A stretch of 64,000 bases of DNA from a virus. Below the pieces are notes generated by a model. It had not been told where the DNA came from and did no database searches. It was given only the letters and a program-made list of their open reading frames with translations. Both the position numbers and the translations under genes were made by a program. The stretch is taken from IMG/VR virus record IMGVR_UViG_3300016665_000824, positions 70,297 to 134,296 of that record. One strand, written 5' to 3'. Of the stretch, positions 19,171-57,237 are shown in pieces (within the stretch, counting starts at the first letter, position 1; each line of letters starts with the position of its first letter).

Positions 19171-19701
19171 ATGCTCTCAAGCGAAGAATACATACGCGAC
19201 AGACAAGACTTCGGTTGCTGGGAAGCCCGTATATTTTACTCCCCAGAATTAGATGCCGTTGTTGCGGCAGGTTTTATGGATGGGTTGATCTTCAACAAGG
19301 AAGAACTCTTCCAGCTAGGCTCATTACTCCTTGATGCCTCAATTAACGTTTCGGGTAAAGACATCTGCCACCTCAATAATCGGACATCGGCGAGAGGTCG
19401 TTCTGACAAGGATTTTTGGCTACAGCGCAAGAATAGATCTGGACTCGTGTATCTAATCAAGGCGATCGGGACTAACTACTACAAAATTGGTAGAACAAAA
19501 GATATTGAGACTAGATTAGAGACCCTGCAAAAGTCATCTCCATTCGACCTCTCGCTGATTCTTGCCATAGAAACATCAGACTCTTTGGCTCTAGAGAGGT
19601 ACTTCCACGATAAGTACAATGATTGTCGAGTTAGGGGTGAGTGGTTTGAGCTAGATGAGTATGCGATCGCTGAATTTATGAGCTACGAGGAGGTCGCGTG
19701 A
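19171..19701 (+). CDS. T5orf172-domain protein (GIY-YIG-like nuclease fold)
   Basis: C-terminal GLVYLIKAIGTNYYKIGRTKDIETRLETLQ ... ERYFHDKY...GEWFEL matches the T5orf172 pattern; start set at first ATG (ORF track starts at GTG 19102). Confidence 0.55.
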   Translation: MLSSEEYIRDRQDFGCWEARIFYSPELDAVVAAGFMDGLIFNKEELFQLGSLLLDASINVSGKDICHLNNRTSARGRSDKDFWLQRKNRSGLVYLIKAIGTNYYKIGRTKDIETRLETLQKSSPFDLSLILAIETSDSLALERYFHDKYNDCRVRGEWFELDEYAIAEFMSYEEVA

Positions 19702-20924
19702 TGAAAGGATACGAACAGACCTGCCCCAAAGTCGAAGCGATCGGGCAAATCAACTTTCACGGCGACGGTGTTTTTACGCCAAACAACTGGTATCACAACA
19801 TCTGTCACAAGAACGGTAAACCCTATCTCGAAGCAATAATTCTTCTTGCGGATATTGTTTCTTGGTATTTGCCCATCTACGAAAGAGATGAAGTCACTGG
19901 CAAGACGATTGGGGTCAGGAAAAAATTCAAGGCAGACAAACTCCAGCGAAACTACGACTCTTTTGCGGACCATTATGGCATGACCAAAGATCAAGCTAGA
20001 AATGCTCTGAAACACCTAGAAAGAGACGGACTCATAGACCTAGAGCTAAGAACAGTCGAAACTTCAGTACAAAAGCTTGGAAATGTTTTGTTTATCGGTG
20101 TTTACCCAGAAAAAATCAAGGATTACACTTTCACCCTCTCGCCAAAAGAACAGACCCCTGTGCTCACAGAAACCGATAGGGGTATCGACAGAAAAGCAGA
20201 GGGGTCTGCACAGAAACAGACAGCACTCCCCACAGAAGCCCAGACAAATACAGATCAATCTACAGATCTTTCTACTGATCAATCTACTAAAAATATAAGA
20301 GCGGATGAATTTTTTGCGATCGCTCCTTCGTCGCAAATCCAAGAAAATTCTTTTCCCGCACAAACAGAAAATCCGAGAATTGAAGAAACCCCAACACCCC
20401 CTACCCCCTCTTCCCCTTCCGCGCCCGAAAATATCGGCAAGGCGATCGCGCCCTCGGTAGCCACCTCAAAACAGGCAGAAGCGTATATGCAGTTTGAGCA
20501 GCGCTTTAGCCAACCAAAACCTCAAAACCGCCACGTACCCAAACTGCTTGTGGAGGCTGGCTATGCAGAATGGCACAACGGCAAACACCCGAACGACTGG
20601 CGCAAATCCTTGATAGATGTTTGCATCCAAAGGAAGAAAAAGCGTGGCGATGAAGCGACTGTAGGTGCAGCCACCGACTTTATTTTTAACGTAATGAAAG
20701 ACTGTATTTCCCTCGGATTCTGGGGTAAGTTCCAAGAGCTTGTTGATCAAGCCCTAAAGCTCGAAGCCGTCGAAGCGATCGCCGCACAACAAAAACAAAT
20801 TGAAGATCAGCGATTCGAGCAACAGCCAGTTGAATCTAACGCCCCCACAATGACTCTTGAACTTCGCAAGCAATATGCTGCCGAATTGAGACGTAAAGCC
20901 AACAACATGAGACTAATTGCTTAA
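19701..20924 (+). CDS. candidate replication initiation / helicase-loader protein
   Basis: 408 aa immediately upstream of and coupled to dnaB (TGATG overlap with previous stop); winged-helix-like N-terminus, low-complexity linker; function inferred from position only. Confidence 0.3.
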   Translation: MKGYEQTCPKVEAIGQINFHGDGVFTPNNWYHNICHKNGKPYLEAIILLADIVSWYLPIYERDEVTGKTIGVRKKFKADKLQRNYDSFADHYGMTKDQARNALKHLERDGLIDLELRTVETSVQKLGNVLFIGVYPEKIKDYTFTLSPKEQTPVLTETDRGIDRKAEGSAQKQTALPTEAQTNTDQSTDLSTDQSTKNIRADEFFAIAPSSQIQENSFPAQTENPRIEETPTPPTPSSPSAPENIGKAIAPSVATSKQAEAYMQFEQRFSQPKPQNRHVPKLLVEAGYAEWHNGKHPNDWRKSLIDVCIQRKKKRGDEATVGAATDFIFNVMKDCISLGFWGKFQELVDQALKLEAVEAIAAQQKQIEDQRFEQQPVESNAPTMTLELRKQYAAELRRKANNMRLIA

Positions 20925-20928
20925 AACT

Positions 20929-22656
20929 ATGAAAGACCCACAACAGATCCAAAGACTCAACGCTCAGATCGAACCTAGCAACGTTGAAGCCGAACAAACG
21001 ATCATTGCGGGGGTTTTTGAAGGTGGAAGCCTTCTTAGCCTAGTCGCCGACGCAATCACACCTGAGATGTTTTTTTCGAGCCTTCTAGGGGCATTTTTTA
21101 GGGCATCGTTGTTTTTGAGAAATAGCGATCGCGACATAAACACCCTAACCTTAGCCGCCGCGCTACAGGAGATGGGTTTTAAAGACTTTTACGGCTTTGA
21201 CAGTATCTCGGCGCTAGTCCACAACACCTATGCCGACATTATGGGCAGCACGTATATTCAAAGTCCAGCCCACTACGAATCTGCCGCCGCCCTAATCCGT
21301 GAAGCCTCCGTAAGGCGAGACCTGATTAAAGCTGGCAGAGCAGCGATCGCCGCAGCCTACGATCAAGAAATATCTGTGCTTGATGCCTGTACTAAAGCTC
21401 AAGATTTGATTGGGGATGCTATGACATCATCTCAGGTTCGTAGTACCGTGTTTGAGGTTGGTACAACCTACACAAACATGTGTGCGGAACTTCTCGATCC
21501 TCAAATTGGAGAGTTCAATCCCGTAATCCCCAGTGGTTATGCGGCGTGGGATGAAATGCTTGAAGGTGGTTTTCGGGGTGCTGAACTCGCGGTTATTGGT
21601 GGAGACTCGGCGATCGGTAAGTCGATGCTCTTGTTTGGTGCGGCATGGAATATGGCGAAATTCCTTTCGGATCAAGGTAGGGTGGGTTATATCGGCTCGA
21701 TGGAAATGTCCACTCGTAGCGTTGTGCATCGCTGGATTGCTTCCGAAGCGCAAGTGGCTTTATCTCGGATGCGTCGCCGAGAATTAAGCGAAGCCGATTG
21801 CGAAAGGATTATGAAGGCATCTAGCGCTGGCGAAATGTTGAATAACCTTGTAATTGACGAGGACAACAAGGCTACTATCCCCCAAATGCTTAACCGAGCC
21901 AAAGAATTTGCACGTAAACATGCTAGAAAATATGGCGGTAGCGGCGAGCTTGGCTTTATGGTTATCGACAACATCAAGATCGCCGAAAAAGGTGGTGACG
22001 ATTTCAACTTGGTTAACCGATACCTCAAAGATCTCAAGGGGATTGCAAAGGATTACAACATCCCGATAATCTCTTTGTCTCAGCTAACTAGAGAATCCCT
22101 GTTAAAAAGTTCTGACAAACGCCCTACTGTTGAGGGGTTGTATGGCGGCAAAGCGATTGAAGAAAATGCTGACGACATTTTTGGCTTGTATCGAGGTGTT
22201 AAGTACGACGATTTCTCTATCCCCACAAACCGAGCTGAGATTATTCGTCTGAAAGGTCGAAACTCAGACCAGTCAAAGGAAAATAGAACGATTTTGCTTG
22301 GCTTCAATGGCGCTCTTTCTACTTTTTACGACCTTGGCGAACCAAAACTAGCCCAAAAATCGGAGCAAAAACAAGCGATCGCCACACCAGTCACCGAAGA
22401 CATTAACTACTTCGGCGATCTCGAAGATGGATGTCAAGTTGTTCTGGATATTTCCTACTCAACACCTGAAGAAAAATCGGAGATCAGCGATCGTATCAAC
22501 GCAAAGCAGCTACCAAAGCCCAATGAAGTCTGTGGAGTAACCCGCCTAAGCGTTTGCGAAACTCCTGAAGTAGGTAAATTTGGGGTTGCCCACCTAATAC
22601 TGCCCGACAACTCCGAAATGAAGGTTGCAGTAGACGAATTGCGCCGAGTCAGTTAG
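20929..22656 (+). CDS. dnaB: replicative DNA helicase DnaB
   Basis: DnaB-like N-terminal domain (NVEAEQTIIAGVF), Walker A GGDSAIGKS, RecA-like core; start set at ATG 20929 (ORF track TTG 20917). Confidence 0.75.
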   Translation: MKDPQQIQRLNAQIEPSNVEAEQTIIAGVFEGGSLLSLVADAITPEMFFSSLLGAFFRASLFLRNSDRDINTLTLAAALQEMGFKDFYGFDSISALVHNTYADIMGSTYIQSPAHYESAAALIREASVRRDLIKAGRAAIAAAYDQEISVLDACTKAQDLIGDAMTSSQVRSTVFEVGTTYTNMCAELLDPQIGEFNPVIPSGYAAWDEMLEGGFRGAELAVIGGDSAIGKSMLLFGAAWNMAKFLSDQGRVGYIGSMEMSTRSVVHRWIASEAQVALSRMRRRELSEADCERIMKASSAGEMLNNLVIDEDNKATIPQMLNRAKEFARKHARKYGGSGELGFMVIDNIKIAEKGGDDFNLVNRYLKDLKGIAKDYNIPIISLSQLTRESLLKSSDKRPTVEGLYGGKAIEENADDIFGLYRGVKYDDFSIPTNRAEIIRLKGRNSDQSKENRTILLGFNGALSTFYDLGEPKLAQKSEQKQAIATPVTEDINYFGDLEDGCQVVLDISYSTPEEKSEISDRINAKQLPKPNEVCGVTRLSVCETPEVGKFGVAHLILPDNSEMKVAVDELRRVS

Positions 22657-22681
22657 TAAAAAGCCCACGAGACCCATTCTT

Positions 22682-23690: not shown

Positions 23691-23715
23691 GGTATTTAGT
23701 TTCAGGTAAAACAAT

Positions 23716-31410: not shown

Positions 31411-31615
31411 TTTTTTTGGCGTAGCGATCGGTAAATACTATCGCAATATTAAAACTGGAGACATATACCAAGTAGTTCTTCTTTCATTTTCATCTGAGTT
31501 GGGTACGGAACTTCTAGTTAGCTATAAGAAACAAGGAGACGCGCTTCCTTGGACTCGTCCCTTAGCTCTTTTTATTATTAAATTTGAGGAGGTCGGAAGT
31601 AATGTTCCAGCCTAA
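31403..31615 (+). CDS. DUF1653-like small protein
   Basis: GKYYRNIKTGDIYQVV ... LPWTRPLALF resembles the DUF1653 pattern; start at ATG 31403. Confidence 0.35.
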   Translation: MVDFFGVAIGKYYRNIKTGDIYQVVLLSFSSELGTELLVSYKKQGDALPWTRPLALFIIKFEEVGSNVPA

Positions 31616-43375: not shown

Positions 43376-44035
43376 CTAGCCTCCGTAATAGTCAGCACAT
43401 AAATACTCAAGCGATCGCCCTATTTTAACCGAGTAATTCTCACCCTCGATACTAGCTTCCTGCATCACCTTTTCTAAAGCCGCTCTCACGATCTCCACAG
43501 CGTCCGTAGGAACACTAAAGATCATTCGAGTGAATTCATCACTGGCTTCGGGAGGAGCTTTCTCCTTGGCGGCTTCGAGCATCTTGGCGAGACTTTCCTT
43601 TGTGTGAGGTGTGGGGAGATAAGCGCGATCGCCTAATTTCTTTTCAACCCTTTTGAGGGAAACACTTAGCTTAACTGGATCTTCTTCGCCGTGAGCCTTG
43701 GATGCGGAGGTGTATAACTCGTATTCTTCATCCTGTAAGCCCGTAATGACATTGCAATAGTAGTATTCCAGCCCCTCTAAGTATCTATGTTCGCCATTTA
43801 CAATCTCGTACTCACCCTCAATATGCGGATGGGGGCGAACAACAAGCGGCTCAATTTGGGTAAACATCTTTAAGCTCTCCCCCAAAGCCTTTTGGTGGTG
43901 AGGCTGCAAAACGTTTGAGTTCCAAGAGTTCGGATGTATCTTTGAGGTCTCAATCTTTACATTCCACTCTTTCTGGATTCGTTGCGCGATCGGTAGCGAA
44001 TAATCAATCTTCTTCGTCATCTTCATCCTCTTCAA
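43376..44035 (-). CDS. ParB-like nuclease-domain protein
   Basis: N-terminal segment (IHPNSW ... QIEPLVVRP ... YEIVNGEHRY) resembles the ParB N-terminal domain. Confidence 0.4.
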   Translation of the reverse strand: MKRMKMTKKIDYSLPIAQRIQKEWNVKIETSKIHPNSWNSNVLQPHHQKALGESLKMFTQIEPLVVRPHPHIEGEYEIVNGEHRYLEGLEYYYCNVITGLQDEEYELYTSASKAHGEEDPVKLSVSLKRVEKKLGDRAYLPTPHTKESLAKMLEAAKEKAPPEASDEFTRMIFSVPTDAVEIVRAALEKVMQEASIEGENYSVKIGRSLEYLCADYYGG

Positions 44036-47128: not shown

Positions 47129-47567
47129 ATCTAATAGGCTCGTCTAGACCTTGATCGAGTTGCACGTAAAGTTGTTTGGTTGAGTTGGTAAGGAATTTAA
47201 GATAAGTAACCGATCCTTTCTTGCCTTCACAAAAATAGTTGGGGAATTCTTTGAGAACCTGTCTTGTTGTTTTACCTTCAAGCTTGAGGGCTTGACTCAT
47301 TGGTACAGGTATTGTCTGAGATGAAGTGGTAAGGCAATCTTCGGTGTTGCCATCGAGTACTTTTGCTAGCTGTGTCTCCGCGATCGGGCGGAGATCTACG
47401 AAGGCGAGATAGCCTTCTTCTGGAAGATTTAAAGAAATAGCGATAAGCGCACCTAGCAGCAATGCGTTTATCGCTATGTCACGTTTTTTCATTGGTTTAG
47501 CGACGCTCAGCCCTTGCTTGACGAGGAGAAAATGCCACATCGTCATTTTTTTTAGTGTTCTCGGCAA
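47001..47567 (-). CDS. hypothetical exported protein
   Basis: Signal/TM-like N-terminus; 3' part overlaps hydrolase gene in another frame (boundary uncertain). Confidence 0.35.
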   Translation of the reverse strand: MPRTLKKMTMWHFLLVKQGLSVAKPMKKRDIAINALLLGALIAISLNLPEEGYLAFVDLRPIAETQLAKVLDGNTEDCLTTSSQTIPVPMSQALKLEGKTTRQVLKEFPNYFCEGKKGSVTYLKFLTNSTKQLYVQLDQGLDEPIRYGFKPPEETPSTTKTETGGNQQRVSDRLPREARSKGDSLEKR

Positions 47568-48015
47568 CGATGTCGTTAACCTTTTTTTCTGCGATCACAC
47601 CAGTAAACTCTTTAACCGCAGAAACTCCGTTAAAAGCCCATGCGTTAGGCATTCCACCAGCTTCCGAGGTAGTGAGATAACGAGGCGTGGGATTGAAAAA
47701 ACTAAGAAGAGCCATAATGCCCATAGGAATAACCACGATCGCTGTGCATCCGTATAGAAGCGCCCATCGTTTGTTGCTCAAAACAGAGTCTATAAATGCT
47801 CTAGCGGAAACGATGATTGCCTGATGCTGATCTTTGTCGATCAAGTAAACTCTTTTACCTGATTCAAGTCCATCAACAAGACCATCACCGTTGATATCGC
47901 CACTAAAAGCCGTCTTACCTGCTTTCCCGTAAACAACAATATCGCATTCTGCTCGTTTCATTGTCATTGGTTTTCCTCCTCCACCGCCCTGTGGCGGCAT
48001 ATTTCCTGCGTTCAT
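47497..48015 (-). CDS. hypothetical membrane protein
   Basis: Gly-rich N-terminus and one TM segment (WALLYGCTAIVVIPMGIMALL). Confidence 0.4.
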   Translation of the reverse strand: MNAGNMPPQGGGGGKPMTMKRAECDIVVYGKAGKTAFSGDINGDGLVDGLESGKRVYLIDKDQHQAIIVSARAFIDSVLSNKRWALLYGCTAIVVIPMGIMALLSFFNPTPRYLTTSEAGGMPNAWAFNGVSAVKEFTGVIAEKKVNDIVAENTKKNDDVAFSPRQARAERR

Positions 48016-48018
48016 GTT

Positions 48019-49362
48019 TTAAGCCGTTCTTGGAAACAGCACTAGGTTGTCTTTACCGATCGCGAGGATTCTATCAAGAGCTTCCTCCACCGATTCTTCA
48101 GTGACTTCCGACTTCTCGGAATCAAACCTGAAGCCGTCCAGATGCTTGAGATCTGGCATTAATGCAATCTTGGGTATACCCATTGTGGTTAGCAATACTG
48201 GGCGATCGCCTTGCTTCTTAGCCATTGCGATCGCATCTCCAAGCATCCCCGCAAGAGATAATCTTTGCTGCTTATTAGGGAATAGTTTTGCATCGGCAAG
48301 AGCTGCTTCAATGGGCCTATAGCCAACATCATTCTTTTCACCCATGCGACCTAGCGCAAGAACTGAGAAGCAGCCTCGCACTGGGTCGCTGAAGCCAATT
48401 TGAGTACAAAGGTGAGTTTGCGCGACAAGAATAAGGCGAACACACATCTCTCTTCCCATAGCAACTATCTGATTGAGCATTCCAAAAAATTCTGCCTCTC
48501 TTTTTGAGGAAGCAATCATGTCTTGTAGTACCCACCACTCGTCAAGGATTAGATATTGAGGGGCAAAGACTGGGCGCTTCCCGCCTTCTCGTAATATCTT
48601 TTGTACTGCGCGAATCCTATTCTTCATGATCTTAAAGGCGCGGCTAATCTGCTCGGAAGCAGCATCAAGCTGCTCGTCTTGCGTGTCTTGATCTAAGTAG
48701 GTGACGATGCCATCTTCGCTTTGAAGCCCTAGCCAGTCCGTTGTCTTTGGATCGACAATACCGAATTTAGAAGCGGGGTTGATCTTCTTTATTCGCTGGA
48801 TAAGCGCCTTTAGCAAGGTAGACTTACCCGCGCCAGACTTGGTGGCAATCAGTACATGAAGATCTGTGTGAGCCACCTCGCCGATAATATCTCCAGTAAA
48901 CACTCCTTTCGAGTACTCGGTAACAGCTATAGGCTCTTCGTCCGTATAAGGCTCGTCATCAAACTGAGGAGGTCTAACTGCTGCTACTGGTTGAGGGCGA
49001 GGCGCGGATGTGCGCTGAACATTGGTATTGCGAATAATTACTGGGGCAGCAACTTGCTGTTGAGCGTGAGGCAGAGCTACTGGAGTCTCCTCGCCTTTGG
49101 GTTGTTCATCTTCAAGGTTGCTTGCCAAGCCGACACCTGACGCGATCGCCATGCCAAGAAAAGCCAAAGTAGCAATAGGATTATTGTAGGAACTGGGCTG
49201 AAGTACAGCCTGTTGCCCATGATCGTTAACACTTGAGTCTACCCTCCTGTATTCGTCTGCGGACTTAAATAGGACATCTCTCGGTAATACCGACCATCCA
49301 GCAGCTCCTAGCCATGCTGCACAGCTAATGCCTAATAGTAGGTTTACTGTTGACTTCTTCAT
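48019..49362 (-). CDS. membrane-anchored P-loop ATPase, FtsK/SpoIIIE/VirD4-like
   Basis: N-terminal TM segments, Pro/Gln-rich linker, Walker A TKSGAGKST, Walker B YLILDEWW. Confidence 0.55.
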   Translation of the reverse strand: MKKSTVNLLLGISCAAWLGAAGWSVLPRDVLFKSADEYRRVDSSVNDHGQQAVLQPSSYNNPIATLAFLGMAIASGVGLASNLEDEQPKGEETPVALPHAQQQVAAPVIIRNTNVQRTSAPRPQPVAAVRPPQFDDEPYTDEEPIAVTEYSKGVFTGDIIGEVAHTDLHVLIATKSGAGKSTLLKALIQRIKKINPASKFGIVDPKTTDWLGLQSEDGIVTYLDQDTQDEQLDAASEQISRAFKIMKNRIRAVQKILREGGKRPVFAPQYLILDEWWVLQDMIASSKREAEFFGMLNQIVAMGREMCVRLILVAQTHLCTQIGFSDPVRGCFSVLALGRMGEKNDVGYRPIEAALADAKLFPNKQQRLSLAGMLGDAIAMAKKQGDRPVLLTTMGIPKIALMPDLKHLDGFRFDSEKSEVTEESVEEALDRILAIGKDNLVLFPRTA

Positions 49363-50095: not shown

Positions 50096-50458
50096 CTACC
50101 TCCCCGCCGAAGGAAGAAATTGACTGATTGGGCGGTTCGTAGGAAGAAAAGGATTGTCTTCCGAGTTGTTCACGCCAGTAAAAAAATCACCGAGAACTTC
50201 TCCGCTATAGGCGATCGCGTCAGGGAGTTTTTGAATTACGTTGAGCGCAATCTGTTCTCCAACCGCAAAGGCGATCGTTCCTGCGATTTCATTGCCGACT
50301 TGAGTTCCGACTGTGCCAACCTGAGTGCGAACCTGCATTTGTACCTGTTCTGGGGTTAGAAGGGCGGACTGGGGAGCAGTAGCCCTAACATCTTCTACAG
50401 GAGTTACATCTAGCAAGGCTTGCTCTTCTTCGGTTAAATGAGCGTTATCTTTGGACAT
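50096..50458 (-). CDS. hypothetical protein
   Basis: 120-aa ORF, coupled. Confidence 0.35.
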   Translation of the reverse strand: MSKDNAHLTEEEQALLDVTPVEDVRATAPQSALLTPEQVQMQVRTQVGTVGTQVGNEIAGTIAFAVGEQIALNVIQKLPDAIAYSGEVLGDFFTGVNNSEDNPFLPTNRPISQFLPSAGR

Positions 50459-50720
50459 CTTCGTATGTACTCTCTAAAAAATCTGAACATTTTTGGTAAT
50501 TAGACAGGGCAGCTTTTTTTGTAAAACCTCTTGCTTTGAGGCTGGTCTCTTTTCCGATTGCGGCTATCTGTCTTGCAGTTTTAAGACCGCAAGGAGATTT
50601 GATTCTTACTCCTCTCTTCTTTAAAAGGCGGTATCCCCAATCCTTAAAAGTCCCAAAAGGTATGCCAATCTGCTCTGCCCACTCGTGAAGGTGGCGTTCT
50701 ACTTGGCTTGTTTGCGTCAT
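50445..50720 (-). CDS. hypothetical basic protein
   Basis: 91-aa ORF, coupled. Confidence 0.35.
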   Translation of the reverse strand: MTQTSQVERHLHEWAEQIGIPFGTFKDWGYRLLKKRGVRIKSPCGLKTARQIAAIGKETSLKARGFTKKAALSNYQKCSDFLESTYEDVQR

Positions 50721-51088: not shown

Positions 51089-51352
51089 ATGAGCGTCACT
51101 CAGACTGCGCGTTTCCCCGATGATTTACATGCTGCATTGAAAGAACACTGCGATCGCACAGGAAATAGCGCCAACGCAGAAATAATCCTCGCAGTGCGAA
51201 AACATCTGGGTATGCCAACAGTCGAAGATCGTCTCGATAGTCTTGAAGAGGGATTGAGAAAATGTATTGATAGGTTGAATAGGCTAGAGGCTAGCGCGAT
51301 CGCCACTCAGCAATCTTCCGACACCGATATTCGGTCCAGTGCGGATGATTAG
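51089..51352 (+). CDS. ribbon-helix-helix (Arc/MetJ/CopG-type) transcriptional regulator
   Basis: N-terminal TARFPDDLHAALKEHCDRTGNSANAEIILAVRKHL fits beta-strand/helix/helix RHH pattern. Confidence 0.45.
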   Translation: MSVTQTARFPDDLHAALKEHCDRTGNSANAEIILAVRKHLGMPTVEDRLDSLEEGLRKCIDRLNRLEASAIATQQSSDTDIRSSADD

Positions 51353-51593
51353 TCGGCGTGTACCAATTTTCATATTTGTAAGTACCCTTTGACCTGTTGC
51401 AAGGCGTACAAGCTGGTACGGTATTTGCAAAGTCGTCGCTACCCGAATCATGGCGCGGAATGATATGGTCTAGTCCGTTTGCCTCGTTACCGCAGTAGGC
51501 ACATTTATAGTCAAACTCTTGGAACGTATAATCTCTAATCTTTTGCAAAACATCTTTTTTCCTAATGCAGTCAGATAGGGATATATAGAGCAT
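51291..51593 (-). CDS. HNH endonuclease
   Basis: CAYCG ... LDHIIP ... ACTPCNRSKG HNH motif; start set at ATG 51593 (ORF track 51638). Confidence 0.7.
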   Translation of the reverse strand: MLYISLSDCIRKKDVLQKIRDYTFQEFDYKCAYCGNEANGLDHIIPRHDSGSDDFANTVPACTPCNRSKGTYKYENWYTPTNHPHWTEYRCRKIAEWRSR

Positions 51594-51709
51594 ATTCAAT
51601 ACCCATGTTTTGACAATGCTGCCACAAAATTGAAACAAGTGCGGCGATCGCTACAGATTTGGCGAACCAAATATCGCTATACTGACACAAGAAGATTTTT
51701 AAAAACTAA

Positions 51710-51916
51710 ATGCTTAAGTACAAACAAGCTGAAGTGGCGATCGCTCCCAACGGTTCGTGCGAAATTCTTTGGGGAAATAACCACCCCACAATGGCTGGAA
51801 TGAAGCAAGATGTACATCTGCCTGAAGAGATCAAGGGCCACCTTGTTGCAGTAAATCAGTACGTCAGTCAGTACATTGATATCGTGACGGAGCCAGCAGA
51901 TGTCTTGGACTTATAG
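51710..51916 (+). CDS. hypothetical protein
   Basis: 68-aa ORF. Confidence 0.35.
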   Translation: MLKYKQAEVAIAPNGSCEILWGNNHPTMAGMKQDVHLPEEIKGHLVAVNQYVSQYIDIVTEPADVLDL

Positions 51917-52145
51917 AGTCTGCCGTGATTTTGAACCTAATGGGGAAGAGTTCCTCAGTATTCGCGAATGCTGGGTTAGAGAGGGCGCTTCCCCTCCCTA
52001 TAAAGACGAGGACTATACTTCTTGGTCTGCCGAGCCTATTTCTGTGGTCGGAGATAATCTTGAAGAGCTGGCATGGAAGCTAGAGAAGATGGCGATCGCT
52101 CTGAAGAAAAACATTCTTGATATACCACGCGATCGCCCTGAGTAA
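51900..52145 (+). CDS. hypothetical protein
   Basis: 81-aa ORF. Confidence 0.35.
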   Translation: MSWTYRVCRDFEPNGEEFLSIRECWVREGASPPYKDEDYTSWSAEPISVVGDNLEELAWKLEKMAIALKKNILDIPRDRPE

Positions 52146-52188
52146 ATGCACAAGAAATCCCGAAATCGTGTGCATGTTTATTCAATAT

Positions 52189-52241
52189 ACACAAGCAACC
52201 CGCCAAGCCTCTCTACGATGCTGAAACTGGCGGGTTGCTTG
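52189..52241. terminator. stem-loop between convergent genes
   Basis: cacaagcaacccgcc ... ggcgggttgcttgtg, ~14-bp stem with ~23-nt loop, followed by T-rich tgttgtg. Confidence 0.45.
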
Positions 52242-52249
52242 TGTTGTGA

Positions 52250-52633
52250 TTATACCTGAGTGGCGAAGTATTTAGAGGCGATCGCGATAAGCCTTAATTG
52301 TTCGCTGGGATAAATCCCTGAAGGTCCAACTGCCTCATATAGTCTCTTTAGCACCTCAGCTTTGCCGTACTCGGAAATCAGTAAAGCCCATCCAAGTACA
52401 TGTAGCTGGAACAAAAGCTCTTTCTGGAGCCGTTCCTTATGAGCTGTACTCTTACCCTTAAACGTCGGATGTCGAACCTCTCGTACTCGCAGCTTGTTTT
52501 TCGGGAAGGAAATGTAGAGACTTGAGGTTAGGTATTCATCTATCAGAACGAGAAGTTCTTGGCGATCTTTTTGTAAGAGTTCTGCTTGCATAGACATACT
52601 CAAAAACCTTTGTATTTCTGCCAAGAAGTCCAA
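52250..52633 (-). CDS. hypothetical protein
   Basis: 127-aa ORF. Confidence 0.4.
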   Translation of the reverse strand: MDFLAEIQRFLSMSMQAELLQKDRQELLVLIDEYLTSSLYISFPKNKLRVREVRHPTFKGKSTAHKERLQKELLFQLHVLGWALLISEYGKAEVLKRLYEAVGPSGIYPSEQLRLIAIASKYFATQV

Positions 52634-53465: not shown

Positions 53466-53836
53466 TGCTTCTTAAAACCTTCAAAAGGGATATAAGGCTC
53501 TTGCTCCATCCACTGCTTAAGGCGATCGCGGGCAAAAGCTTCTCGATATTGCGGTGGAACAAGACTAACTTCCTGTGCTGCTGCTTCGTACTTGTCTAAC
53601 TCGGCGATCGCATCATCAGCCGACATTCTCCCAAACAGTACTTCCTGATTAAGTAACGCATACTGAAGTTCGTACATTAATTCAGGATCTGTGGGCGTAT
53701 ATTCGGGAACAAGCTTGGACAGGTCTTCAATCGCACTGCACCAGTGTTGGTCGCTGGAGCAAGGTGCATCATCGGCTTTGACTCGTGACCATAACAAGTT
53801 GACAAGGATTAATTCGAGTTGTTTAGGATCTGCCAT
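53462..53836 (-). CDS. hypothetical protein
   Basis: 124-aa ORF. Confidence 0.4.
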   Translation of the reverse strand: MADPKQLELILVNLLWSRVKADDAPCSSDQHWCSAIEDLSKLVPEYTPTDPELMYELQYALLNQEVLFGRMSADDAIAELDKYEAAAQEVSLVPPQYREAFARDRLKQWMEQEPYIPFEGFKKQ

Positions 53837-54344
53837 GTGGGTAATACGAAAAACTATTGGGGAATATAGAACCTATTAGCAAGGAAATACCTGTATCGAC
53901 GTAGTTGCAAATAGCAAATACTTCTTTCTTATTTAGGTCTAAGAATGGCAAGTCTTCCTTGAGAAACGCCTCAATACGCTTGGTAAAGATTACGCAGTTA
54001 TCGGGGCAAAAACGCTCAATATTGCCTGCGTCTACTGCTATATATCTTTTATGGTCGGCAAAGAAGAAGCTTTGGGCGTTATAAGCGCTACCAAAGTCAA
54101 TAACCGTCCAGTGCGTCGGGATTATCTTGGATAAGTAGTAGTAAGTATCGACAAACCCAAGAAAGCTTGGTTCGATATCGACGTATTCTTGGTTGAACAC
54201 GCGATCGCCCTGCTCTTTAGGCAGCAAAGCCAACAGTTTGGCATTGATCGATTCAGCTTCTTGCCAGCGAAGGGCATTGTCATTAGGTATTATCATCGTC
54301 ATACTCCTCACGATCGCGTGCTTCTTGTTCTTGGTAGCCACCAA
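53823..54344 (-). CDS. hypothetical protein
   Basis: 173-aa ORF. Confidence 0.4.
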   Translation of the reverse strand: MVATKNKKHAIVRSMTMIIPNDNALRWQEAESINAKLLALLPKEQGDRVFNQEYVDIEPSFLGFVDTYYYLSKIIPTHWTVIDFGSAYNAQSFFFADHKRYIAVDAGNIERFCPDNCVIFTKRIEAFLKEDLPFLDLNKKEVFAICNYVDTGISLLIGSIFPNSFSYYPHGRS

Positions 54345-54522
54345 AAGTCAGCAACATCCCACGGATTACGGACAGATTAACTTCATTGGATGAATACTTT
54401 TTAGTCGGGAGGGATTCTTCTAAGTGATCAAGGGTGTCCCGAACCCTGTAAATTAGCCGCAGCCACTCAGGAATTTCTAGAATTATTGCTGACGCGATCG
54501 CGTAAAGGACTATTAGGTTCAT
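54283..54522 (-). CDS. hypothetical protein
   Basis: 79-aa ORF, overlaps neighbour. Confidence 0.3.
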   Translation of the reverse strand: MNLIVLYAIASAIILEIPEWLRLIYRVRDTLDHLEESLPTKKYSSNEVNLSVIRGMLLTFGGYQEQEARDREEYDDDNT

Positions 54523-54942
54523 TTACAGAAGCTCCTTAGAGAAGAAAGTTGTTTCTTTAGCCACGTCGATATCGACAGGATGAAGACCAACCGCCAACGA
54601 CTCTAAAGCCTCACTCGCGTTACTAGGATCTACTACCCACGTTTTTGCGTCAACTTCGGGCACTTGAGACCAGTATCTTTGCAACCACTTTAACCAGCCG
54701 TTGCGAGAAAACGGTTTAGGCGGATCGATTGCCGCCAATTTTTCAACAGCTTCTTTTACAAGGATCGCATCCTCTTCTAGGCTTGCTGAGTCAATCCAGA
54801 AACCGCATTTTTTGCAGTAAACAATATAGTTGCCACTGCGCTTTGAGATCTGAATCCCCAAAGAAATGGTCTTGCGAGCAAATCCTTGACTAACTTTTCC
54901 GTAGTTAGGATCGATCGCTTTCCGTCTTTTAGCTTCACCCAT
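54523..54942 (-). CDS. hypothetical protein
   Basis: 139-aa ORF with CKKCG pattern. Confidence 0.4.
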   Translation of the reverse strand: MGEAKRRKAIDPNYGKVSQGFARKTISLGIQISKRSGNYIVYCKKCGFWIDSASLEEDAILVKEAVEKLAAIDPPKPFSRNGWLKWLQRYWSQVPEVDAKTWVVDPSNASEALESLAVGLHPVDIDVAKETTFFSKELL

Positions 54943-55192
54943 TAAATTTCTCCCTTGATGTTAATTCGTATAGTCCCATCTCTTCAGTTATCCTAACCAA
55001 CTCACTCAAAGCGTCCATCCTCGCAACCTTCTCCTTGGCTCGCTCAACTTCTTCAAGCATTTCACCATAGGCGAATGGTTCGTATTGCTCAATCGCCTTT
55101 GCGAGGCGATCGCGATCTAATTCATCCAAGGCAGACTTAAATTTGAGATAGGCGATCGCCTCGTTTAGATTGCTTGGTAGTTGGGTTCTCAT
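54935..55192 (-). CDS. hypothetical protein
   Basis: 85-aa ORF. Confidence 0.35.
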   Translation of the reverse strand: MRTQLPSNLNEAIAYLKFKSALDELDRDRLAKAIEQYEPFAYGEMLEEVERAKEKVARMDALSELVRITEEMGLYELTSREKFNG

Positions 55193-55295
55193 TGCGATAC
55201 CACTTATTTATTATTAAAAAATACATAGAAGAAATGCGGCAATTCATATTAAATGAATTACGCTCAACTCCTGAAAAGTGCAAGATATTTCGTAG

Positions 55296-56387
55296 TTAAT
55301 TATGTGTTAAGGGGGTTATCTTGGAGGTTTTAGCACCCTCCTCAGAAAGCCTTGCTAGGTAAGCAGACACCCGCCGTCGCAAACTTTTTTTCGACAGTAA
55401 ATCATACTCTTTTTCAAAGATACAGCAAAGTGATTTGTAAAACAAGTTTTTATACTTGAAATAATGAGTATTCACCCTTTCTGCATCAGCAAAATGTCGA
55501 GACAGATAATAGGAATAGTTTACTTCCGCATTGGAGTCTGTTTGACAAATATGTACTCGTCTCAATCTACTGAGAGACCTGCGATCGCGTACTTCTTCGT
55601 CAATGGCTCGAATCGCATCAAGGATCTCAAGGTCATCGCTAAATGGTTCGGCGGCTTGATGGATCTCTTTTAAGTAGGAGTCCCATCGCCGAGTTAGCGA
55701 TCGCTCCTTGAGATGATTTGATATGGTTCGAGCTGTGACTCCCAATGACTTAGCTATTTCTAGCTGAGAAGCGCCATAAGGTACGAAGTTCTCGTTAGTA
55801 TAAATCCTGTCCTTAGATACTGCCTCAACACCCTCAATCCCCATAGAACATAATTCAGAGGCTTGGAGTTTTAGCAAGTCCTTTGCAGGTACTAACCTGA
55901 GTTTTTTCTTTACTTTGCGCTGCTTGTTTTTTTCTTTTTCTGCCAGTCCAGCAGCAAATTTAGAACGAGCTTGTTTTGCAAGTAATTCGGCGCGAGTACA
56001 GTGATACTTAACTTGAGTGATCTGAATCGGACTTAGTTCGACTATCGACCCAAGTTTGGCAACATCATGTTGTTTGCAGACCTTGCCAATACTTGTGTAT
56101 CGCACCCATGCTCGACCTTCTGGTAGCCACCGATAATCGATAAGCAATCCAGCTTTGTGAGACTCCCTAATCCATTTTTTGAGTGTGTCGGGTTTTACGC
56201 CGCAATCACTCGCCAAATGACTGATATTGAATTTAACCCAGCCTTTCCCGCGATCGCTTCTAGATGAAAACTGATCTAGCCCACGCACGACATGCCAAAT
56301 ATTTACTGCGCCGATCGCATGATTTTTGATCACGGCGTAGAGAATATTTGTGTAAGTTGTGGCAATTATGGGGTAATATAGTTTCAT
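55296..56387 (-). CDS. winged-helix/HTH DNA-binding protein, candidate plasmid-type replication initiator
   Basis: 363 aa with two HTH-like segments (IWHVVRGLDQFSS... and SQLEIAKSLGVTARTISNHL); Rep role inferred from neighbourhood (par genes, tandem repeats). Confidence 0.3.
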   Translation of the reverse strand: MKLYYPIIATTYTNILYAVIKNHAIGAVNIWHVVRGLDQFSSRSDRGKGWVKFNISHLASDCGVKPDTLKKWIRESHKAGLLIDYRWLPEGRAWVRYTSIGKVCKQHDVAKLGSIVELSPIQITQVKYHCTRAELLAKQARSKFAAGLAEKEKNKQRKVKKKLRLVPAKDLLKLQASELCSMGIEGVEAVSKDRIYTNENFVPYGASQLEIAKSLGVTARTISNHLKERSLTRRWDSYLKEIHQAAEPFSDDLEILDAIRAIDEEVRDRRSLSRLRRVHICQTDSNAEVNYSYYLSRHFADAERVNTHYFKYKNLFYKSLCCIFEKEYDLLSKKSLRRRVSAYLARLSEEGAKTSKITPLTHN

Positions 56388-56526
56388 CTGAGCGCTACTA
56401 TCGCTTGGGTCTGCATCTCATCAGGTTGATTAAGGAATTGAGCCTCCTTAGCCAACTGGCAGTAAAAACAATATAACACAAAACCCCCGCAAACAACTTA
56501 TTCTTGTGGGGGTTTTGTTGTAAAAT

Positions 56527-57237
56527 ATGTTTATGCGATCGCGTATCTCACTACCGATCGCTGACCATCCAACCATACTGGACAGTAAAAATATTATGTC
56601 ATACATAGACAGCCTGAAAGTAACTGCGAAGAAACATGCAATAATACAGGATATTATTTCTAGGTGCTGGAATTACTGTGTTCAACCACCCAAGAGACTC
56701 AATTCTGAGATACTTAACCATCCTGACATCATCAGCCTTATTGACCATAGCTGGGATAGCAGTATTGTTGGGCTAAACGAGTACCAAAAGCTTGTATTTT
56801 CCCTTGTCAGTGAAGGGGTAAGCGTTAGAAGCGAGTACCCTCTTTGTTTTCACGACATCTTTGTTAGGTTTCTATCGGAGATGTGCCCACTAAGCCAAAG
56901 GATTTCGATAGAGGAGAACTCTATCGACGAGATACACTTAAAATTTCCAGCCAAAAGAGGGATTTATTTTTGCTTGCGTACGGTTATTGGCTTTCGCCTT
57001 GACGGTTTTAAAAACGAAGTTTGGTATGTCGGGAAGTCGGGAAATTTTAGAGAGAGGTGGAAAAGTCACCACAAGTTTGAGGCTTTAAAGGCTATCAAGA
57101 ACGTTGCAGTGTGTTGGCTGCCCCTCGAAGATTACTCTGATGAGCAGCTAAGCTACGCAGAAGAAGTATATATTTACATGCTTCAACCCGTATTTAATGG
57201 CACTTCCAAGCCTGAAAGGTGTCTAGTGGTTAACTAA
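56527..57237 (+). CDS. GIY-YIG nuclease-domain protein
   Basis: C-terminal KRGIYFCL ... VWYVGKSGNFRERWKSHH ... EEVYIYMLQPVFN fits GIY-YIG. Confidence 0.5.
   Translation: MFMRSRISLPIADHPTILDSKNIMSYIDSLKVTAKKHAIIQDIISRCWNYCVQPPKRLNSEILNHPDIISLIDHSWDSSIVGLNEYQKLVFSLVSEGVSVRSEYPLCFHDIFVRFLSEMCPLSQRISIEENSIDEIHLKFPAKRGIYFCLRTVIGFRLDGFKNEVWYVGKSGNFRERWKSHHKFEALKAIKNVAVCWLPLEDYSDEQLSYAEEVYIYMLQPVFNGTSKPERCLVVN

What the first reader, a model, noticed from the sequence alone, without database searches (positions are those of the whole stretch)
19171..57237. Several free-standing nuclease-fold genes scattered through the element
A T5orf172-domain gene (19171-19701), an HNH endonuclease (51291-51593), a GIY-YIG-domain gene (56527-57237) and an HNH_3/AP2-like gene (61595-62068) are each isolated among unrelated genes. 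Such genes are often homing endonucleases or parts of defence or anti-defence modules. The T5orf172 gene sits directly before the replication genes and the GIY-YIG gene next to the Rep-like gene.
Basis: partly seen in the sequence, partly recalled or inferred. Interest (0 to 1): 0.4.

Follow-up and report, generated by a model that had tools for sequence, protein, structure and literature searches.

The report
Scattered nuclease genes in a cyanophage
A phage-like element from a cyanobacterial metagenome carries three convincing small nuclease genes and one nuclease-like gene; two of them behave like mobile homing-endonuclease genes sitting beside replication-initiator-type genes at the edges of swapped DNA segments, and two are old, strongly conserved residents, which is ordinary phage biology.

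Summary
All four ORFs exist at the stated coordinates. Three nuclease domains are supported: T5orf172/MUG113 (19171-19701), CxxC-type HNH (51291-51638, minus strand) and GIY-YIG (56527-57237; below the Pfam cut-off, but the catalytic motif is invariant in its family). The fourth (61595-62068) has no Pfam hit. Its family has an invariant Arg where HNH_3 has the catalytic His, so nuclease activity is unproven.

Comparison with two related phage lineages splits the set. The T5orf172 gene lies in a 1.08-kb cassette (19175-20253) that one relative replaces with a different initiator N-domain carrying an embedded HNH. The GIY-YIG gene sits at the right edge of a 3.5-kb block (53819-57303) that the same relative lacks. 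The HNH gene is syntenic in one relative (dN 0.07, dS saturated) and absent from the other. The fourth gene is syntenic in both (dN/dS 0.05-0.07).

The GIY-YIG gene belongs to a rare family, absent from deposited phages and reference genomes. In all five contexts seen it abuts an initiator-like gene, but it does not co-vary with that gene's DNA-binding domain.

Best reading: two free-standing homing-endonuclease-like genes at recombination boundaries, as already described for other phages, plus two long-retained, possibly domesticated genes. Modest interest.

The parts
19171..19701 (+). g35: free-standing T5orf172/MUG113 (GIY-YIG superfamily) nuclease gene with an orphan N-terminal ~90 aa. Its stop overlaps the start of the initiator gene.
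   Evidence: Pfam MUG113 1.9e-17 and T5orf172 6.1e-12. Invariant Y94, YKIG104-107, R115, E142, H146, R153, GE156-157 and F159 are intact. ATG 19171 aligns with the ATG of the L005 initiator gene. AGGAAA RBS upstream. Absent from relative L005.
19175..20253 (+). Exchanged cassette: the T5orf172 gene plus the N-terminal (DNA-binding) half of the initiator. In relative L005 a 771-bp segment encoding an O-like initiator N-domain with an embedded HNH domain takes its place.
   Evidence: blastn: window 18627-19174 matches L005 205-704 (72%), and window 20254-22713 matches L005 1476-3877 (74%), with nothing between. L005 463-aa protein: HNH PF01844 1.5e-10 at residues 166-214 and O-like initiator PHROG 1.2e-39.
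19698..20924 (+). g36: replication-initiation / DnaD-like loader protein. The N-terminal wHTH half is variable and the C-terminal half is conserved.
   Evidence: PHROG 270 'replication initiation protein' 2.2e-11 and DnaD-like loader 1.6e-5. Weak HTH_36. The C-terminal half is 64-70% identical to L005 and 79% to L023.
20249..20287 (+). Three tandem 12-nt repeats (TACAGATCAATC-like) at the right cassette boundary, inside the initiator linker. Possibly iterons, but the evidence is weak.
   Evidence: the repeat finder D1. No other copies in the window above chance. L005 has a different 12-mer repeat at the same place.
20917..22656 (+). DnaB helicase, the conserved right flank of the cassette.
   Evidence: Pfam DnaB and DnaB_C. 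78% identical to L005 and 75% to L023.
50096..50720 (-). 'Empty site': relatives L007 and L008 carry an extra free-standing 130-aa HNH gene between the homologs of these two ORFs. The window has none.
   Evidence: L007 8487-8879 has an HNH motif and domain-level HNH hits. It is 37% identical to g92 and is also present in L008.
51291..51638 (-). g92: small (100-115 aa) zinc-finger HNH endonuclease, CxxC...DH...N...CxxC, with no extra DNA-binding domain.
   Evidence: Pfam HNH 7.4e-11. 88% identical and syntenic in L007. dN 0.073 with dS saturated. Absent from L012. Not called by the source's gene caller, which called the antisense 87-aa ORF instead.
53819..57303 (.). 3,485-bp variable block (four small ORFs, the HTH_36 Rep-like gene and the GIY-YIG gene). 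Relative L007 has 702 bp with one unrelated ORF in its place.
   Evidence: blastn boundaries: window 53818 matches L007 6279 and window 57304 matches L007 5576. No tblastn hits for g99-g103 in L007 or L012.
55296..56387 (-). g102: 363-aa HTH_36 + HTH_23 DNA-binding protein (Rep-like; the initiator role is not proven), transcribed divergently from the GIY-YIG gene.
   Evidence: Pfam HTH_36 3.1e-6 and HTH_23 1.4e-4. The N-terminus is 88% identical in L018, which also carries a GIY-YIG partner.
56463..56533 (.). Imperfect 30-nt inverted repeat in the divergent intergenic region, overlapping the GIY-YIG start codon. Candidate operator.
   Evidence: the repeat finder I1, 77% complementary with an 11-nt spacer. 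The region is conserved at 86% nt identity in L018.
56527..57237 (+). g103: GIY-YIG nuclease (catalytic core at residues ~145-224) with a ~140-aa N-terminal region of unknown fold. A recombination breakpoint lies at about 56601.
   Evidence: Family alignment: invariant G145-I-Y147, Y167xG169, R175/R177, H181/H182, E212 and N224. Pfam GIY-YIG 18.7 bits, below the cut-off. PDB profile hits to I-TevI and Endo II. AF2 gives a beta-beta-alpha-alpha-beta-alpha topology. L018 shares 86% nt identity up to 56601, after which the protein is only 43% identical.
57251..57296 (.). Perfect 20-bp stem with a T/A run: a bidirectional terminator closing the GIY-YIG transcription unit, 8 bp inside the right edge of the variable block.
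   Evidence: the repeat finder I2, 100% complementary with a 6-nt loop. Block edge at 57303/57304.
61595..62068 (+). g115: member of a very widespread phage family labelled 'HNH endonuclease'. It has an atypical core (HG...RC...YGGKGV...LDRID...NCRW) and a C-terminal helical, HTH-like tail.
   Evidence: PHROG 3377 2.6e-44. No Pfam, NCBIfam or PDB match. R87 in 80/80 and H26 in 73/80 relatives. 92% identical in L007 and 85% in L012, syntenic, with dN/dS 0.05-0.07. 523 phage records and at least 573 genome loci carry relatives.

Best explanation
The four genes are not one kind of thing.

(1) The T5orf172 gene (19171-19701) and the GIY-YIG gene (56527-57237) are free-standing homing-endonuclease-like genes. 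Each sits directly against a replication-initiator-type gene. Each lies at the edge of a DNA segment that has been exchanged or lost between related phages. The inferred mechanism is as follows. During co-infection the nuclease cuts a related genome that lacks it, at or near the initiator locus. Repair from the nuclease-carrying genome then copies the nuclease gene together with flanking DNA: the initiator's N-terminal DNA-binding half in one case, the Rep-like block in the other. This would explain the sharp mosaic boundaries.

(2) The 115-aa HNH (51291-51638) is an intact zinc-finger HNH nuclease. It has been kept in place under strong purifying selection, so it now serves the phage or is maintained by its own activity. 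Its role is not identified.

(3) The 157-aa gene (61595-62068) belongs to a huge family of phage 'HNH endonuclease'-labelled genes that are scattered through genomes in the manner of mobile genes. In this lineage it is a fixed, strongly constrained gene. It lacks the canonical catalytic His, so it is most likely a DNA-binding protein derived from a homing endonuclease.

Shown: the domains, motifs, synteny, boundaries and selection. Inferred: cleavage, homing and the present-day functions.
For: Domains and catalytic motifs.

T5orf172 cassette:
- Flanks are conserved at 72-74% nt identity.
- The interior (19175-20253) is replaced in L005 by an O-like initiator N-domain plus an embedded HNH.

GIY-YIG gene:
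- The block 53819-57303 is absent from L007 and L012.
- The nuclease and its terminator sit at the block edge.
- In L018 the Rep-like N-terminus, the intergenic region and the first 25 codons are 86% identical, but the nuclease body is only 43% identical, so a breakpoint lies inside the ORF.
- In 5 of 5 distinct contexts a family member abuts an initiator-like gene (HTH_36 or Lin1244_N), four times with an ATGA overlap.
- Nuclease and initiator DNA-binding domains vary independently, as expected for an autonomous mobile gene.

Homing-endonuclease turnover in this phage group:
- Extra HNH in L007/L008.
- HNH intein in ThyX and LAGLIDADG intein domains in RNR of the L006-type relative.

g92 and g115:
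- Both are syntenic, with dN/dS of about 0.05-0.07 or lower and dS at or above that of neighbours.
- The g115 family has heterogeneous neighbours in 75 genomes and is multi-copy in phages.

Precedent: T5orf172 and atypical HNH-AP2 homing endonucleases cluster near essential genes and at boundaries of exchange in phages (PMC10448857). A domesticated T5orf172-derived regulator, CapR, is also described (PMC8096241).
Against: - No cleavage or homing has been observed, and only two related lineages (three or four contigs) were available.
- The third relative's contig ends exactly at the cassette, so its state there is unknown.
- In both genomes where the pre-DnaB junction is visible, a nuclease domain accompanies the initiator (T5orf172 in one, HNH in the other). 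All five GIY-YIG family contexts also have an initiator-like partner. This could mean a functional requirement rather than selfish parking.
- No initiator of these types was found without a nuclease, although the search for such cases returned no new loci.
- HIP1 density gives no sign of recent foreign origin for any of the genes.
- Foldseek did not return significant nuclease hits for either AF2 model.
- g115 keeps a highly conserved His-Gly (73/80) and invariant Cys, Asn and Arg residues, so a non-canonical active site cannot be excluded.
Confidence: 0.55

Rival explanations
1. The nucleases next to the initiator genes are working parts of the replication module. The wHTH initiator binds the origin, and the adjacent GIY-YIG-superfamily protein (or the embedded HNH domain) nicks or cuts there, for example to start rolling-circle or recombination-dependent replication. 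On this view a nuclease of some kind is always required beside the initiator.
For: - A nuclease domain accompanies the initiator in both visible genomes, although its type differs: free-standing T5orf172 in the window, HNH fused in frame in L005.
- The g103 family is adjacent to an initiator-like gene in 5 of 5 contexts. In four of them there is a GAGG ribosome-binding site and an ATGA stop/start overlap, suggesting translational coupling.
- g35 overlaps g36 in the same way.
- Tandem 12-mers that differ between the window and L005 sit in the initiator linker at the cassette edge and could be iterons.
Against: - Nuclease and initiator DNA-binding domains do not co-vary. Similar nucleases sit beside unrelated initiator N-domains, and near-identical N-domains sit beside dissimilar nuclease N-regions.
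- In the window the GIY-YIG gene is divergently transcribed with its own terminator, not in an operon with g102.
- g102 is not a demonstrated initiator: it has HTH domains only.
- DnaB-loading initiators of the O/DnaD type are not known to need a nuclease (established knowledge).
- The sample is small.
Confidence: 0.17
2. The initiator-linked nucleases are weapons in competition between phages or between phage and satellite, like ICP1 Odn. They would cut the replication origin or initiator locus of a competing element that carries a different replicon allele. That pressure would drive diversification of the initiator N-domain/origin cassettes.
For: - Odn is a T5orf172 nuclease that cuts a satellite's origin. 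Its targets escape by swapping the initiator N-domain and origin while keeping the C-terminal domain (PMC8263062).
- The same architecture of variable N-domain and conserved C-domain is seen for g36 against L005 and L023, and for L016 against L020.
- Two assemblies of the third relative break at this cassette, which would fit population heterogeneity there.
- Weak PADLOC domain hits of g35 to PD-Lambda-1 and PDC-S57.
Against: - No similarity between the N-terminal regions of g35 or g103 and any initiator DNA-binding domain in the window or its relatives, so no Odn-type mimicry is detectable.
- No co-variation of nuclease and initiator domains.
- No recognisable defence system or partner genes.
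- The contig breaks have other possible causes.
Confidence: 0.12
3. The 115-aa HNH (51291-51638) is a packaging accessory of the HK97 gp74 type. It would work with the terminase to cut concatemers, which would explain its strong conservation and its lack of a separate DNA-binding domain.
For: - It is small, with a [CxxC]2 zinc-finger HNH. This is the type described next to cos sites and terminase genes in many phages (PMC3592412).
- dN is 0.07 with dS saturated.
- It heads a long run of minus-strand genes that ends at the large terminase.
Against: - It lies 10.6 kb and about 18 genes from the large terminase (39087-40715), not adjacent to it.
- It is absent from the L012/L006-type relative, which has a homologous terminase.
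- A second, 37%-identical HNH comes and goes about 600 bp away in relatives, which looks like homing-endonuclease turnover.
Confidence: 0.12
4. All four are simply conserved core genes of this phage group with fixed positions and no mobility.
For: g92 and g115 are syntenic and strongly constrained between the window and L007. g115 is also syntenic in L012.
Against: g35 is absent from L005. g103 is absent from L007 and L012. g92 is absent from L012.
Confidence: 0.03

Closest known systems
T5orf172 free-standing homing endonuclease genes of vibriophage ICP1 and other phages (Barth, Dunham & Seed 2023, PMC10448857)
   Same: Same Pfam domain (T5orf172/MUG113), with a variable N-terminal region on a conserved C-terminal nuclease domain. 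Located against an essential replication gene and at a boundary of genetic exchange between related phages.
   Different: The N-terminal ~90 aa is orphan and has no recognisable DNA-binding domain. The only full-length homolog is 36% identical. Homing has not been shown. The host is a cyanobacterium (HIP1-rich genome).
I-TevI / Seg-type GIY-YIG homing endonucleases of T4-like phages
   Same: The catalytic motif set matches: GIY, YxGK, R, H, E and N. The spacing Y-10-R-4-H matches the I-TevI motif YVGSAKDFEKRWKRH, its best PDB profile hit. It is free-standing, has its own terminator, and lies next to a gene whose alleles differ between relatives.
   Different: The domain order is reversed: the nuclease is C-terminal and the unknown region is N-terminal, whereas I-TevI has the catalytic domain at the N-terminus (established knowledge). 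It scores below the Pfam GIY-YIG cut-off. The family is small, has no member in 50,697 deposited phages or 185,579 reference genomes, and shows a constant position beside initiator-like genes.
Odn, the origin-directed T5orf172 nuclease of ICP1 (Barth et al. 2021, PMC8263062)
   Same: A GIY-YIG-superfamily nuclease is linked to a replicon whose initiator has a swappable N-terminal DNA-binding domain and a conserved C-terminal domain.
   Different: Odn's N-terminal domain is 42% identical to the target's RepA_N. No such similarity exists here, and nuclease and initiator domains do not co-vary.
Atypical HNH with AP2 ('IPA-HNH') homing endonucleases, and the HNH-AP2 family of cyanobacteria and phages (PMC10448857 and its reference 45)
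   Same: The g115 family is labelled HNH endonuclease yet is too divergent for the Pfam HNH_3 model. Some relatives carry a C-terminal AP2 domain (P0027). It is multi-copy and scattered in phage genomes.
   Different: g115 itself has no detectable AP2 domain. The catalytic His position is Arg in 80 of 80 relatives. In this lineage it is fixed and strongly constrained. Direct homology to the ICP1 proteins was not tested.
cos/terminase-associated zinc-finger HNH endonucleases (HK97 gp74 type; PMC3592412)
   Same: g92 is about 100-115 aa, with HNH plus [CxxC]2 and no extra domain.
   Different: It is not adjacent to the terminase or a known cos site: it lies 10.6 kb away. It is absent from one related lineage.
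CapR, a domesticated T5orf172-derived regulator of the PLE satellite (Netter et al. 2021, PMC8096241)
   Same: It is a precedent for a homing-endonuclease-derived protein kept for DNA binding rather than cutting. This is the proposed state of g115.
   Different: It belongs to a different nuclease superfamily, and no regulatory target is known for g115.

Membership tests
T5orf172 / MUG113 (GIY-YIG clan), for 19171-19701 | Pfam model match above the gathering score | tested here: met
   MUG113 64.0 bits (cut-off 22.3) and T5orf172 46.4 bits (cut-off 20).
T5orf172 / MUG113 (GIY-YIG clan), for 19171-19701 | Conserved core residues (Y..YKIG..R..E..H..R..GEWF) | tested here: met
   All 12 invariant columns of a 17-sequence alignment are present in g35.
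GIY-YIG nuclease superfamily, for 56527-57237 | Pfam GIY-YIG (PF01541) match above the gathering score | tested here: not met
   18.7 bits against a cut-off of 22.6, E=0.0022. One family member (P0013) has a precomputed PF01541 hit.
GIY-YIG nuclease superfamily, for 56527-57237 | Catalytic motif set GIY, YIG, Arg, His/Tyr, Glu and Asn with canonical spacing | tested here: met
   Invariant G145-I146-Y147, Y167/G169, R177, H181, E212 and N224 in 15 sequences. The profile aligns to the I-TevI segment YVGSAKDFEKRWKRH.
GIY-YIG nuclease superfamily, for 56527-57237 | GIY-YIG fold (three-stranded sheet flanked by helices) | tested here: inconclusive
   The AF2 model (pLDDT 73.5) has beta-beta-alpha-alpha-beta-alpha at residues 145-222. 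Foldseek's best relevant hit is R.Eco29kI at E about 0.5.
HNH endonuclease (PF01844), for 51291-51638 | Pfam match above the cut-off, catalytic H-N-H and [CxxC]2 zinc site | tested here: met
   42.5 bits against a cut-off of 21.4. The sequence reads CAYCGN...GLDHIIP...FANTVPACTPCNRSKG.
HNH_3 / AP2 homing endonuclease, for 61595-62068 | Pfam HNH_3 (PF13392) or AP2 (PF00847) match | tested here: not met
   No Pfam family even at E<=1. hhalign against a genuine NUMOD4+HNH_3 protein gives probability 0.3%.
HNH_3 / AP2 homing endonuclease, for 61595-62068 | Catalytic His at the end of the first strand of the beta-beta-alpha-metal motif (DHID) | tested here: not met
   LDRID, with Arg in 80 of 80 relatives. 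Foldseek and PDB profile searches found no significant HNH hit.
HNH_3 / AP2 homing endonuclease, for 61595-62068 | Membership of a phage protein family annotated as HNH endonuclease | tested here: met
   PHROG 3377 2.6e-44. Homologs in 523 phage records are annotated HNH or homing endonuclease. This is an annotation label, not a tested activity.
Free-standing homing endonuclease gene (functional class) | Presence/absence polymorphism among otherwise collinear relatives | tested here: met
   Met for g35 (absent from L005) and g103 (absent from L007 and L012). Partly met for g92 (present in L007, absent from L012). Not met for g115 (present in all three lineages).
Free-standing homing endonuclease gene (functional class) | Location at a recombination boundary, or next to or within a conserved essential gene | tested here: met
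   g35 lies at the left edge of cassette 19175-20253, beside the initiator and DnaB. g103 lies at the right edge of block 53819-57303.
Free-standing homing endonuclease gene (functional class) | Separate sequence-specific DNA-binding domain | tested here: inconclusive
   g35 and g103 have N-terminal regions of about 90 and 140 aa with no recognisable domain. g92 has none.
Free-standing homing endonuclease gene (functional class) | Cleavage of the cognate nuclease-less allele and biased inheritance | not testable with these tools
   Requires purified protein and mixed-infection experiments.
Terminase-associated HNH (HK97 gp74 type), for 51291-51638 | Gene adjacent to the terminase genes or the cos site | tested here: not met
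   The large terminase is at 39087-40715 (PHROG 2, 8.5e-28), 10.6 kb away.
Known anti-phage defence systems (PADLOC) | Full-length match to a system component, with the system's partner genes nearby | tested here: not met
   Only domain-level partial hits (PDC-S57, PD-Lambda-1, PDC-M01B, PtuB) and no partners.
Odn-like origin-directed nuclease | Nuclease N-terminal domain homologous to an initiator's origin-binding domain | tested here: not met
   No BLASTP similarity of the g35 or g103 N-regions to any initiator here. No co-variation.

The most novel reading that the evidence does not exclude
Cyanophage replication initiators of the wHTH/DnaD/O-like type may come as two-part modules that always include a nuclease, whether a small GIY-YIG protein, a T5orf172 protein or an embedded HNH domain. 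That nuclease would act on the origin or initiator locus, either to start replication or to destroy rival replicon alleles. This would make nuclease-driven cassette exchange the engine of replicon diversification in these phages. The previously unrecorded ~150-aa GIY-YIG family, found only beside initiator-like genes, would be the dedicated partner.
Probability: 0.2. Interest if true: 0.6.

Novelty: new member of a known kind. Interest (0 to 1): 0.3.

Why it matters
Multiple free-standing nuclease genes are a familiar feature of phage genomes, and their tendency to sit beside essential genes and at the edges of exchanged segments has been described. This window gives a clear cyanophage example of that pattern:
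- base-level boundaries for two exchanged segments;
- a swap between a free-standing T5orf172 gene and an in-frame HNH domain at the same initiator locus;
- a rare GIY-YIG family that has so far been seen only next to initiator-like genes.

If that pairing proves functional rather than positional, it would bear on how phage replicons diversify and compete. The case also shows that 'HNH endonuclease' labels on the widespread g115-type family rest on a core that lacks the canonical catalytic histidine.

Tried and rejected
- Near-identity search of 47 kb of the window against 50,697 deposited phages: no match.
- Rep-like protein as a probe in IMG/VR: no relatives.
- DnaB alignment in JGI metagenome contigs: only the contig already known.
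- Initiator alignment in IMG/VR, to find initiators without a nuclease: only the two contigs already known, so whether the nuclease is optional could not be tested.
- Walking the third relative's contig to its pre-DnaB junction: the contig ends inside the initiator's conserved half, so the cassette is not visible.
- Defence-system reading: PADLOC gives only partial domain hits. NCBIfam gives only Cas9/IscB HNH-domain similarity, far below the cut-offs.
- Odn-type mimicry: no similarity of the nuclease N-regions to initiator domains.
- HIP1 density as a marker of recent acquisition: the gaps over g103 and g115 are within Poisson expectation (P=0.16-0.39).
- Structure route for g115 and g103: the AF2 models are moderately confident, but Foldseek against the PDB gave no significant hits.
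- Profile search of the g115 family against PDB sequences: nothing.
- Search for further copies or remnants of the four families in all six frames: only one marginal GIY-YIG-like hit at 47863-48042 (E=0.004). It lacks the motifs and lies antisense to conserved genes, so I judged it spurious.
- The 12-nt repeats as iterons: only three local copies, none elsewhere above chance.

Full report
**What the window is.** The 64-kb window is part of a 134,398-bp metagenome contig, ENA ERZ27292652:k141_20893. It carries:
- a phage portal (PF06381);
- a large terminase (PHROG 2, 8.5e-28);
- DnaG, DnaB, ThyX, dCTP deaminase, MazG, SSB and RusA;
- two DNA methyltransferases and a pol III beta clamp;
- ParB_N and ParA/RHH genes.

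The octamer GCGATCGC (HIP1) occurs 186 times against about 1 expected, so the host background is cyanobacterial. No deposited phage is similar at the DNA level.

**Checking the observation.** All four ORFs exist.
- **19171-19701** has MUG113 and T5orf172 hits well above the Pfam cut-offs. It keeps every invariant residue of a 17-member alignment. The ATG at 19171 has an AGGAAA ribosome-binding site.
- **51291-51638 (minus strand)** is a clear HNH (PF01844, 7.4e-11) with a CxxC...DH...N...CxxC layout. The source's gene caller missed it and called an antisense ORF instead. Conservation in the HNH frame shows that the HNH ORF is the real gene.
- **56527-57237** scores below the Pfam GIY-YIG cut-off (18.7 against 22.6 bits). 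Its 15-member family nevertheless has GIY, YxG, R, H, E and N invariant, with I-TevI-like spacing. The two best PDB profile hits are the I-TevI catalytic domain and T4 endonuclease II. The AF2 model shows the expected beta-beta-alpha-alpha-beta-alpha order. Foldseek itself was not significant.
- **61595-62068** lies outside the finding's stated range. It has no Pfam, NCBIfam or PDB match. It does match PHROG 3377, 'HNH endonuclease', at 2.6e-44. In 80 relatives, the position where HNH_3 proteins have the catalytic His is always Arg (LDRID...NCRW). A His-Gly near the N-terminus is conserved in 73 of 80. A nuclease fold and activity are therefore unproven for this gene.

**Related genomes.** Two related lineages were found.
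- The closer one is IMGVR_UViG_3300031951_000374 (loci L005 and L007), with L008 a similar fragment. Its DnaB is 78% identical and its terminase 69%.
- The more distant one is IMGVR_UViG_3300046328_001234 and JGI Ga0456308_0000041 (loci L006, L010, L012, L022, L023). Its terminase is 54% identical.

Gene order is collinear, so each nuclease locus can be compared directly.

**The T5orf172 locus.** DNA similarity to L005 runs up to 19174 and resumes at 20254 (72-74% identity). Nothing aligns between those points.
- In the window this 1.08-kb interval encodes the T5orf172 protein and the N-terminal half of g36. PHROGs identify g36 as a replication-initiation / DnaD-like loader protein.
- In L005 the interval is 771 bp within a single 463-aa ORF. 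Its N-terminus is a different, O-like initiator domain (1.2e-39), followed by an in-frame HNH domain (Pfam 1.5e-10).
- The C-terminal half of the initiator and DnaB are conserved in all three lineages.

So the nuclease travels with the initiator's DNA-binding half as a cassette, and the nuclease type differs between relatives. Both assemblies of the third lineage stop just where this cassette would begin.

**The GIY-YIG locus.** Relative L007 lacks window 53819-57303 and has 702 bp with one unrelated ORF instead. L012 also lacks it.
- The block holds four small ORFs, the HTH_36/HTH_23 'Rep-like' gene g102, and the GIY-YIG gene.
- The perfect 20-bp terminator hairpin of the GIY-YIG gene ends 8 bp inside the block's right edge.
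- A 1.2-kb metagenome contig (L018) carries the same divergent pair. It is 86% identical in DNA through the Rep-like N-terminus, the intergenic region and the first ~25 codons of the nuclease. Beyond that the nuclease is only 43% identical. A recombination breakpoint therefore lies just inside the nuclease ORF.

**The GIY-YIG family elsewhere.**
- The family is rare: 15 proteins in a 5.8-billion-protein search, no match in 50,697 deposited phages, and none in 185,579 reference genomes.
- In every other context recovered, the ~150-190-aa nuclease gene is followed by an initiator-like gene with a GAGG ribosome-binding site and an ATGA stop/start overlap. These contexts are L016/L017, L019, L020/L021 and L024/L025, all different cyanophage-like contigs.
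- The partner genes carry HTH_36 (7.9e-5 and 3e-14) or Lin1244_N (1.8e-9).
- The partners share a C-terminal domain but have unrelated N-terminal domains.
- Nuclease and partner N-domain do not co-vary. Similar nucleases sit beside unrelated N-domains, and near-identical N-domains (101/120) sit beside dissimilar nuclease N-regions.
- There is no similarity between nuclease N-regions and initiator domains.

The association is therefore positional, not a matched specificity pair.

**The two HNH-type genes.**
- **g92** is 88% identical and syntenic in L007, with dN 0.073 and synonymous sites saturated. It is absent from L012.
- **g115** is 92% identical in L007 and 85% in L012, in the same position after the g108 homolog. 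This holds even though the ParA block between them is missing in L012. Its dN/dS is 0.05 and 0.07, and its dS (0.69 and 1.38) is as large as for its neighbours. This indicates long residence under strong constraint, not recent transfer.
- At family level g115 behaves differently. Relatives occur in 523 phage records, often in several copies, and in at least 573 loci of bacterial genomes. In 75 genomes no Pfam family was seen in more than two of their downstream neighbours.

**Other signs of homing-endonuclease traffic in this phage group.**
- L007 and L008 have an extra 130-aa HNH gene between the homologs of window ORFs 50445-50720 and 50096-50458.
- The third lineage has an HNH-bearing intein in ThyX and LAGLIDADG intein domains in an RNR gene that the window lacks.

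**Interpretation.**
- The T5orf172 and GIY-YIG genes fit the published picture of free-standing homing-endonuclease genes that sit beside essential genes and mark the boundaries of exchanged segments (PMC10448857). Cleavage and homing are inferred, not shown.
- The constant presence of some nuclease beside these initiators keeps two rivals alive. One is a functional replication role. The other is an Odn-like competitive role (PMC8263062). The lack of co-variation and of domain mimicry weighs against both.
- g92 is an intact nuclease retained by selection. A packaging role like HK97 gp74 (PMC3592412) is possible, but the gene is 10.6 kb from the terminase and missing from one lineage.
- g115 is best seen as an endonuclease-derived DNA-binding protein that has become a fixed gene here. 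The CapR precedent (PMC8096241) is comparable.
- Defence-system membership is not supported. HIP1 density gives no evidence of recent foreign origin for any of the four.

**Verdict.** The homing-endonuclease interpretation holds for two of the four genes. The phenomenon is a known kind, and the GIY-YIG family and its fixed position beside initiator-like genes are a modest new detail.

Noticed in passing
whole window (e.g. 2252-63883): The cyanobacterial HIP1 octamer GCGATCGC occurs 186 times against about 1.1 expected and is spread through nearly all genes. Translated, it gives the recurrent 'AIA' tripeptide. The element is as HIP1-rich as a cyanobacterial chromosome.
   Followed up: partly
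L022 7946-9766 (relative); window ThyX 31584-32456: In the more distant relative, ThyX is a 606-aa ORF interrupted by an intein of about 305 aa (Intein_splicing 6.5e-9) with an HNH/colicin-DNase domain. The window's ThyX has no intein.
   Followed up: partly
L010 16055-20539 (-), between homologs of window 32416-32895 and 33979-34503: The relative carries a 1494-aa class II ribonucleotide reductase with LAGLIDADG intein domains. The window has no such gene at this position.
   Followed up: no
L007 8487-8879 and L008 62-259; window 50096-50720: An extra free-standing 130-aa HNH gene, 37% identical to the window's HNH, is present in two relatives. The window has the uninterrupted 'empty' arrangement.
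   Followed up: partly
L023 1-520; L012/L006 contig ends: Two independent assemblies of the third lineage (37,070 bp and 41,962 bp) end at almost the same point. That point is inside the conserved C-terminal half of the initiator gene, exactly where the variable nuclease/initiator cassette would begin. This may reflect several cassette variants in the population.
   Followed up: no
window 59572-61425 and 43376-44035: There is a ParA (CbiA/VirC1-type) plus RHH pair, and a separate ParB_N protein next to the beta clamp, so the phage has plasmid-like partition genes. The ParA block is present in L007 but missing from L012. This could be a phage-plasmid lifestyle.
   Followed up: no
window 51089-51352 (+) versus 51291-51638 (-): The source's gene caller annotated an 87-aa plus-strand ORF and left the HNH gene uncalled. 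Conservation and the Pfam hit show that the minus-strand HNH ORF is the real gene.
   Followed up: yes
window 51896-52599: A second small window-specific segment of about 700 bp (ORFs 51900-52145 and 52250-52633, no domain hits) lies just beside the HNH locus. L007 has about 186 bp in its place.
   Followed up: partly
window 20249-20287; L005 about 1480-1515: Three tandem 12-mers (TACAGATCAATC-like) sit in the initiator linker at the right cassette boundary. The relative has a different 12-mer repeat (TACAGAGATTAC) at the same place. This would fit iterons that co-vary with the initiator N-domain, but it also simply encodes a repetitive linker.
   Followed up: partly
window 47863-48042 (+): A marginal match (E=0.004) of the GIY-YIG family profile to a 60-codon frame antisense to conserved genes, inside a 1.2-kb HIP1-free stretch (46994-48201). 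It lacks the GIY and YxGK motifs and is probably spurious.
   Followed up: partly
window 37176-38372: A 398-aa protein with a DUF6464 hit (2.9e-5) and a faint exonuclease VIII-like hit, conserved in both relatives (38-59%). It may be another nuclease/recombinase that the finding did not list.
   Followed up: no
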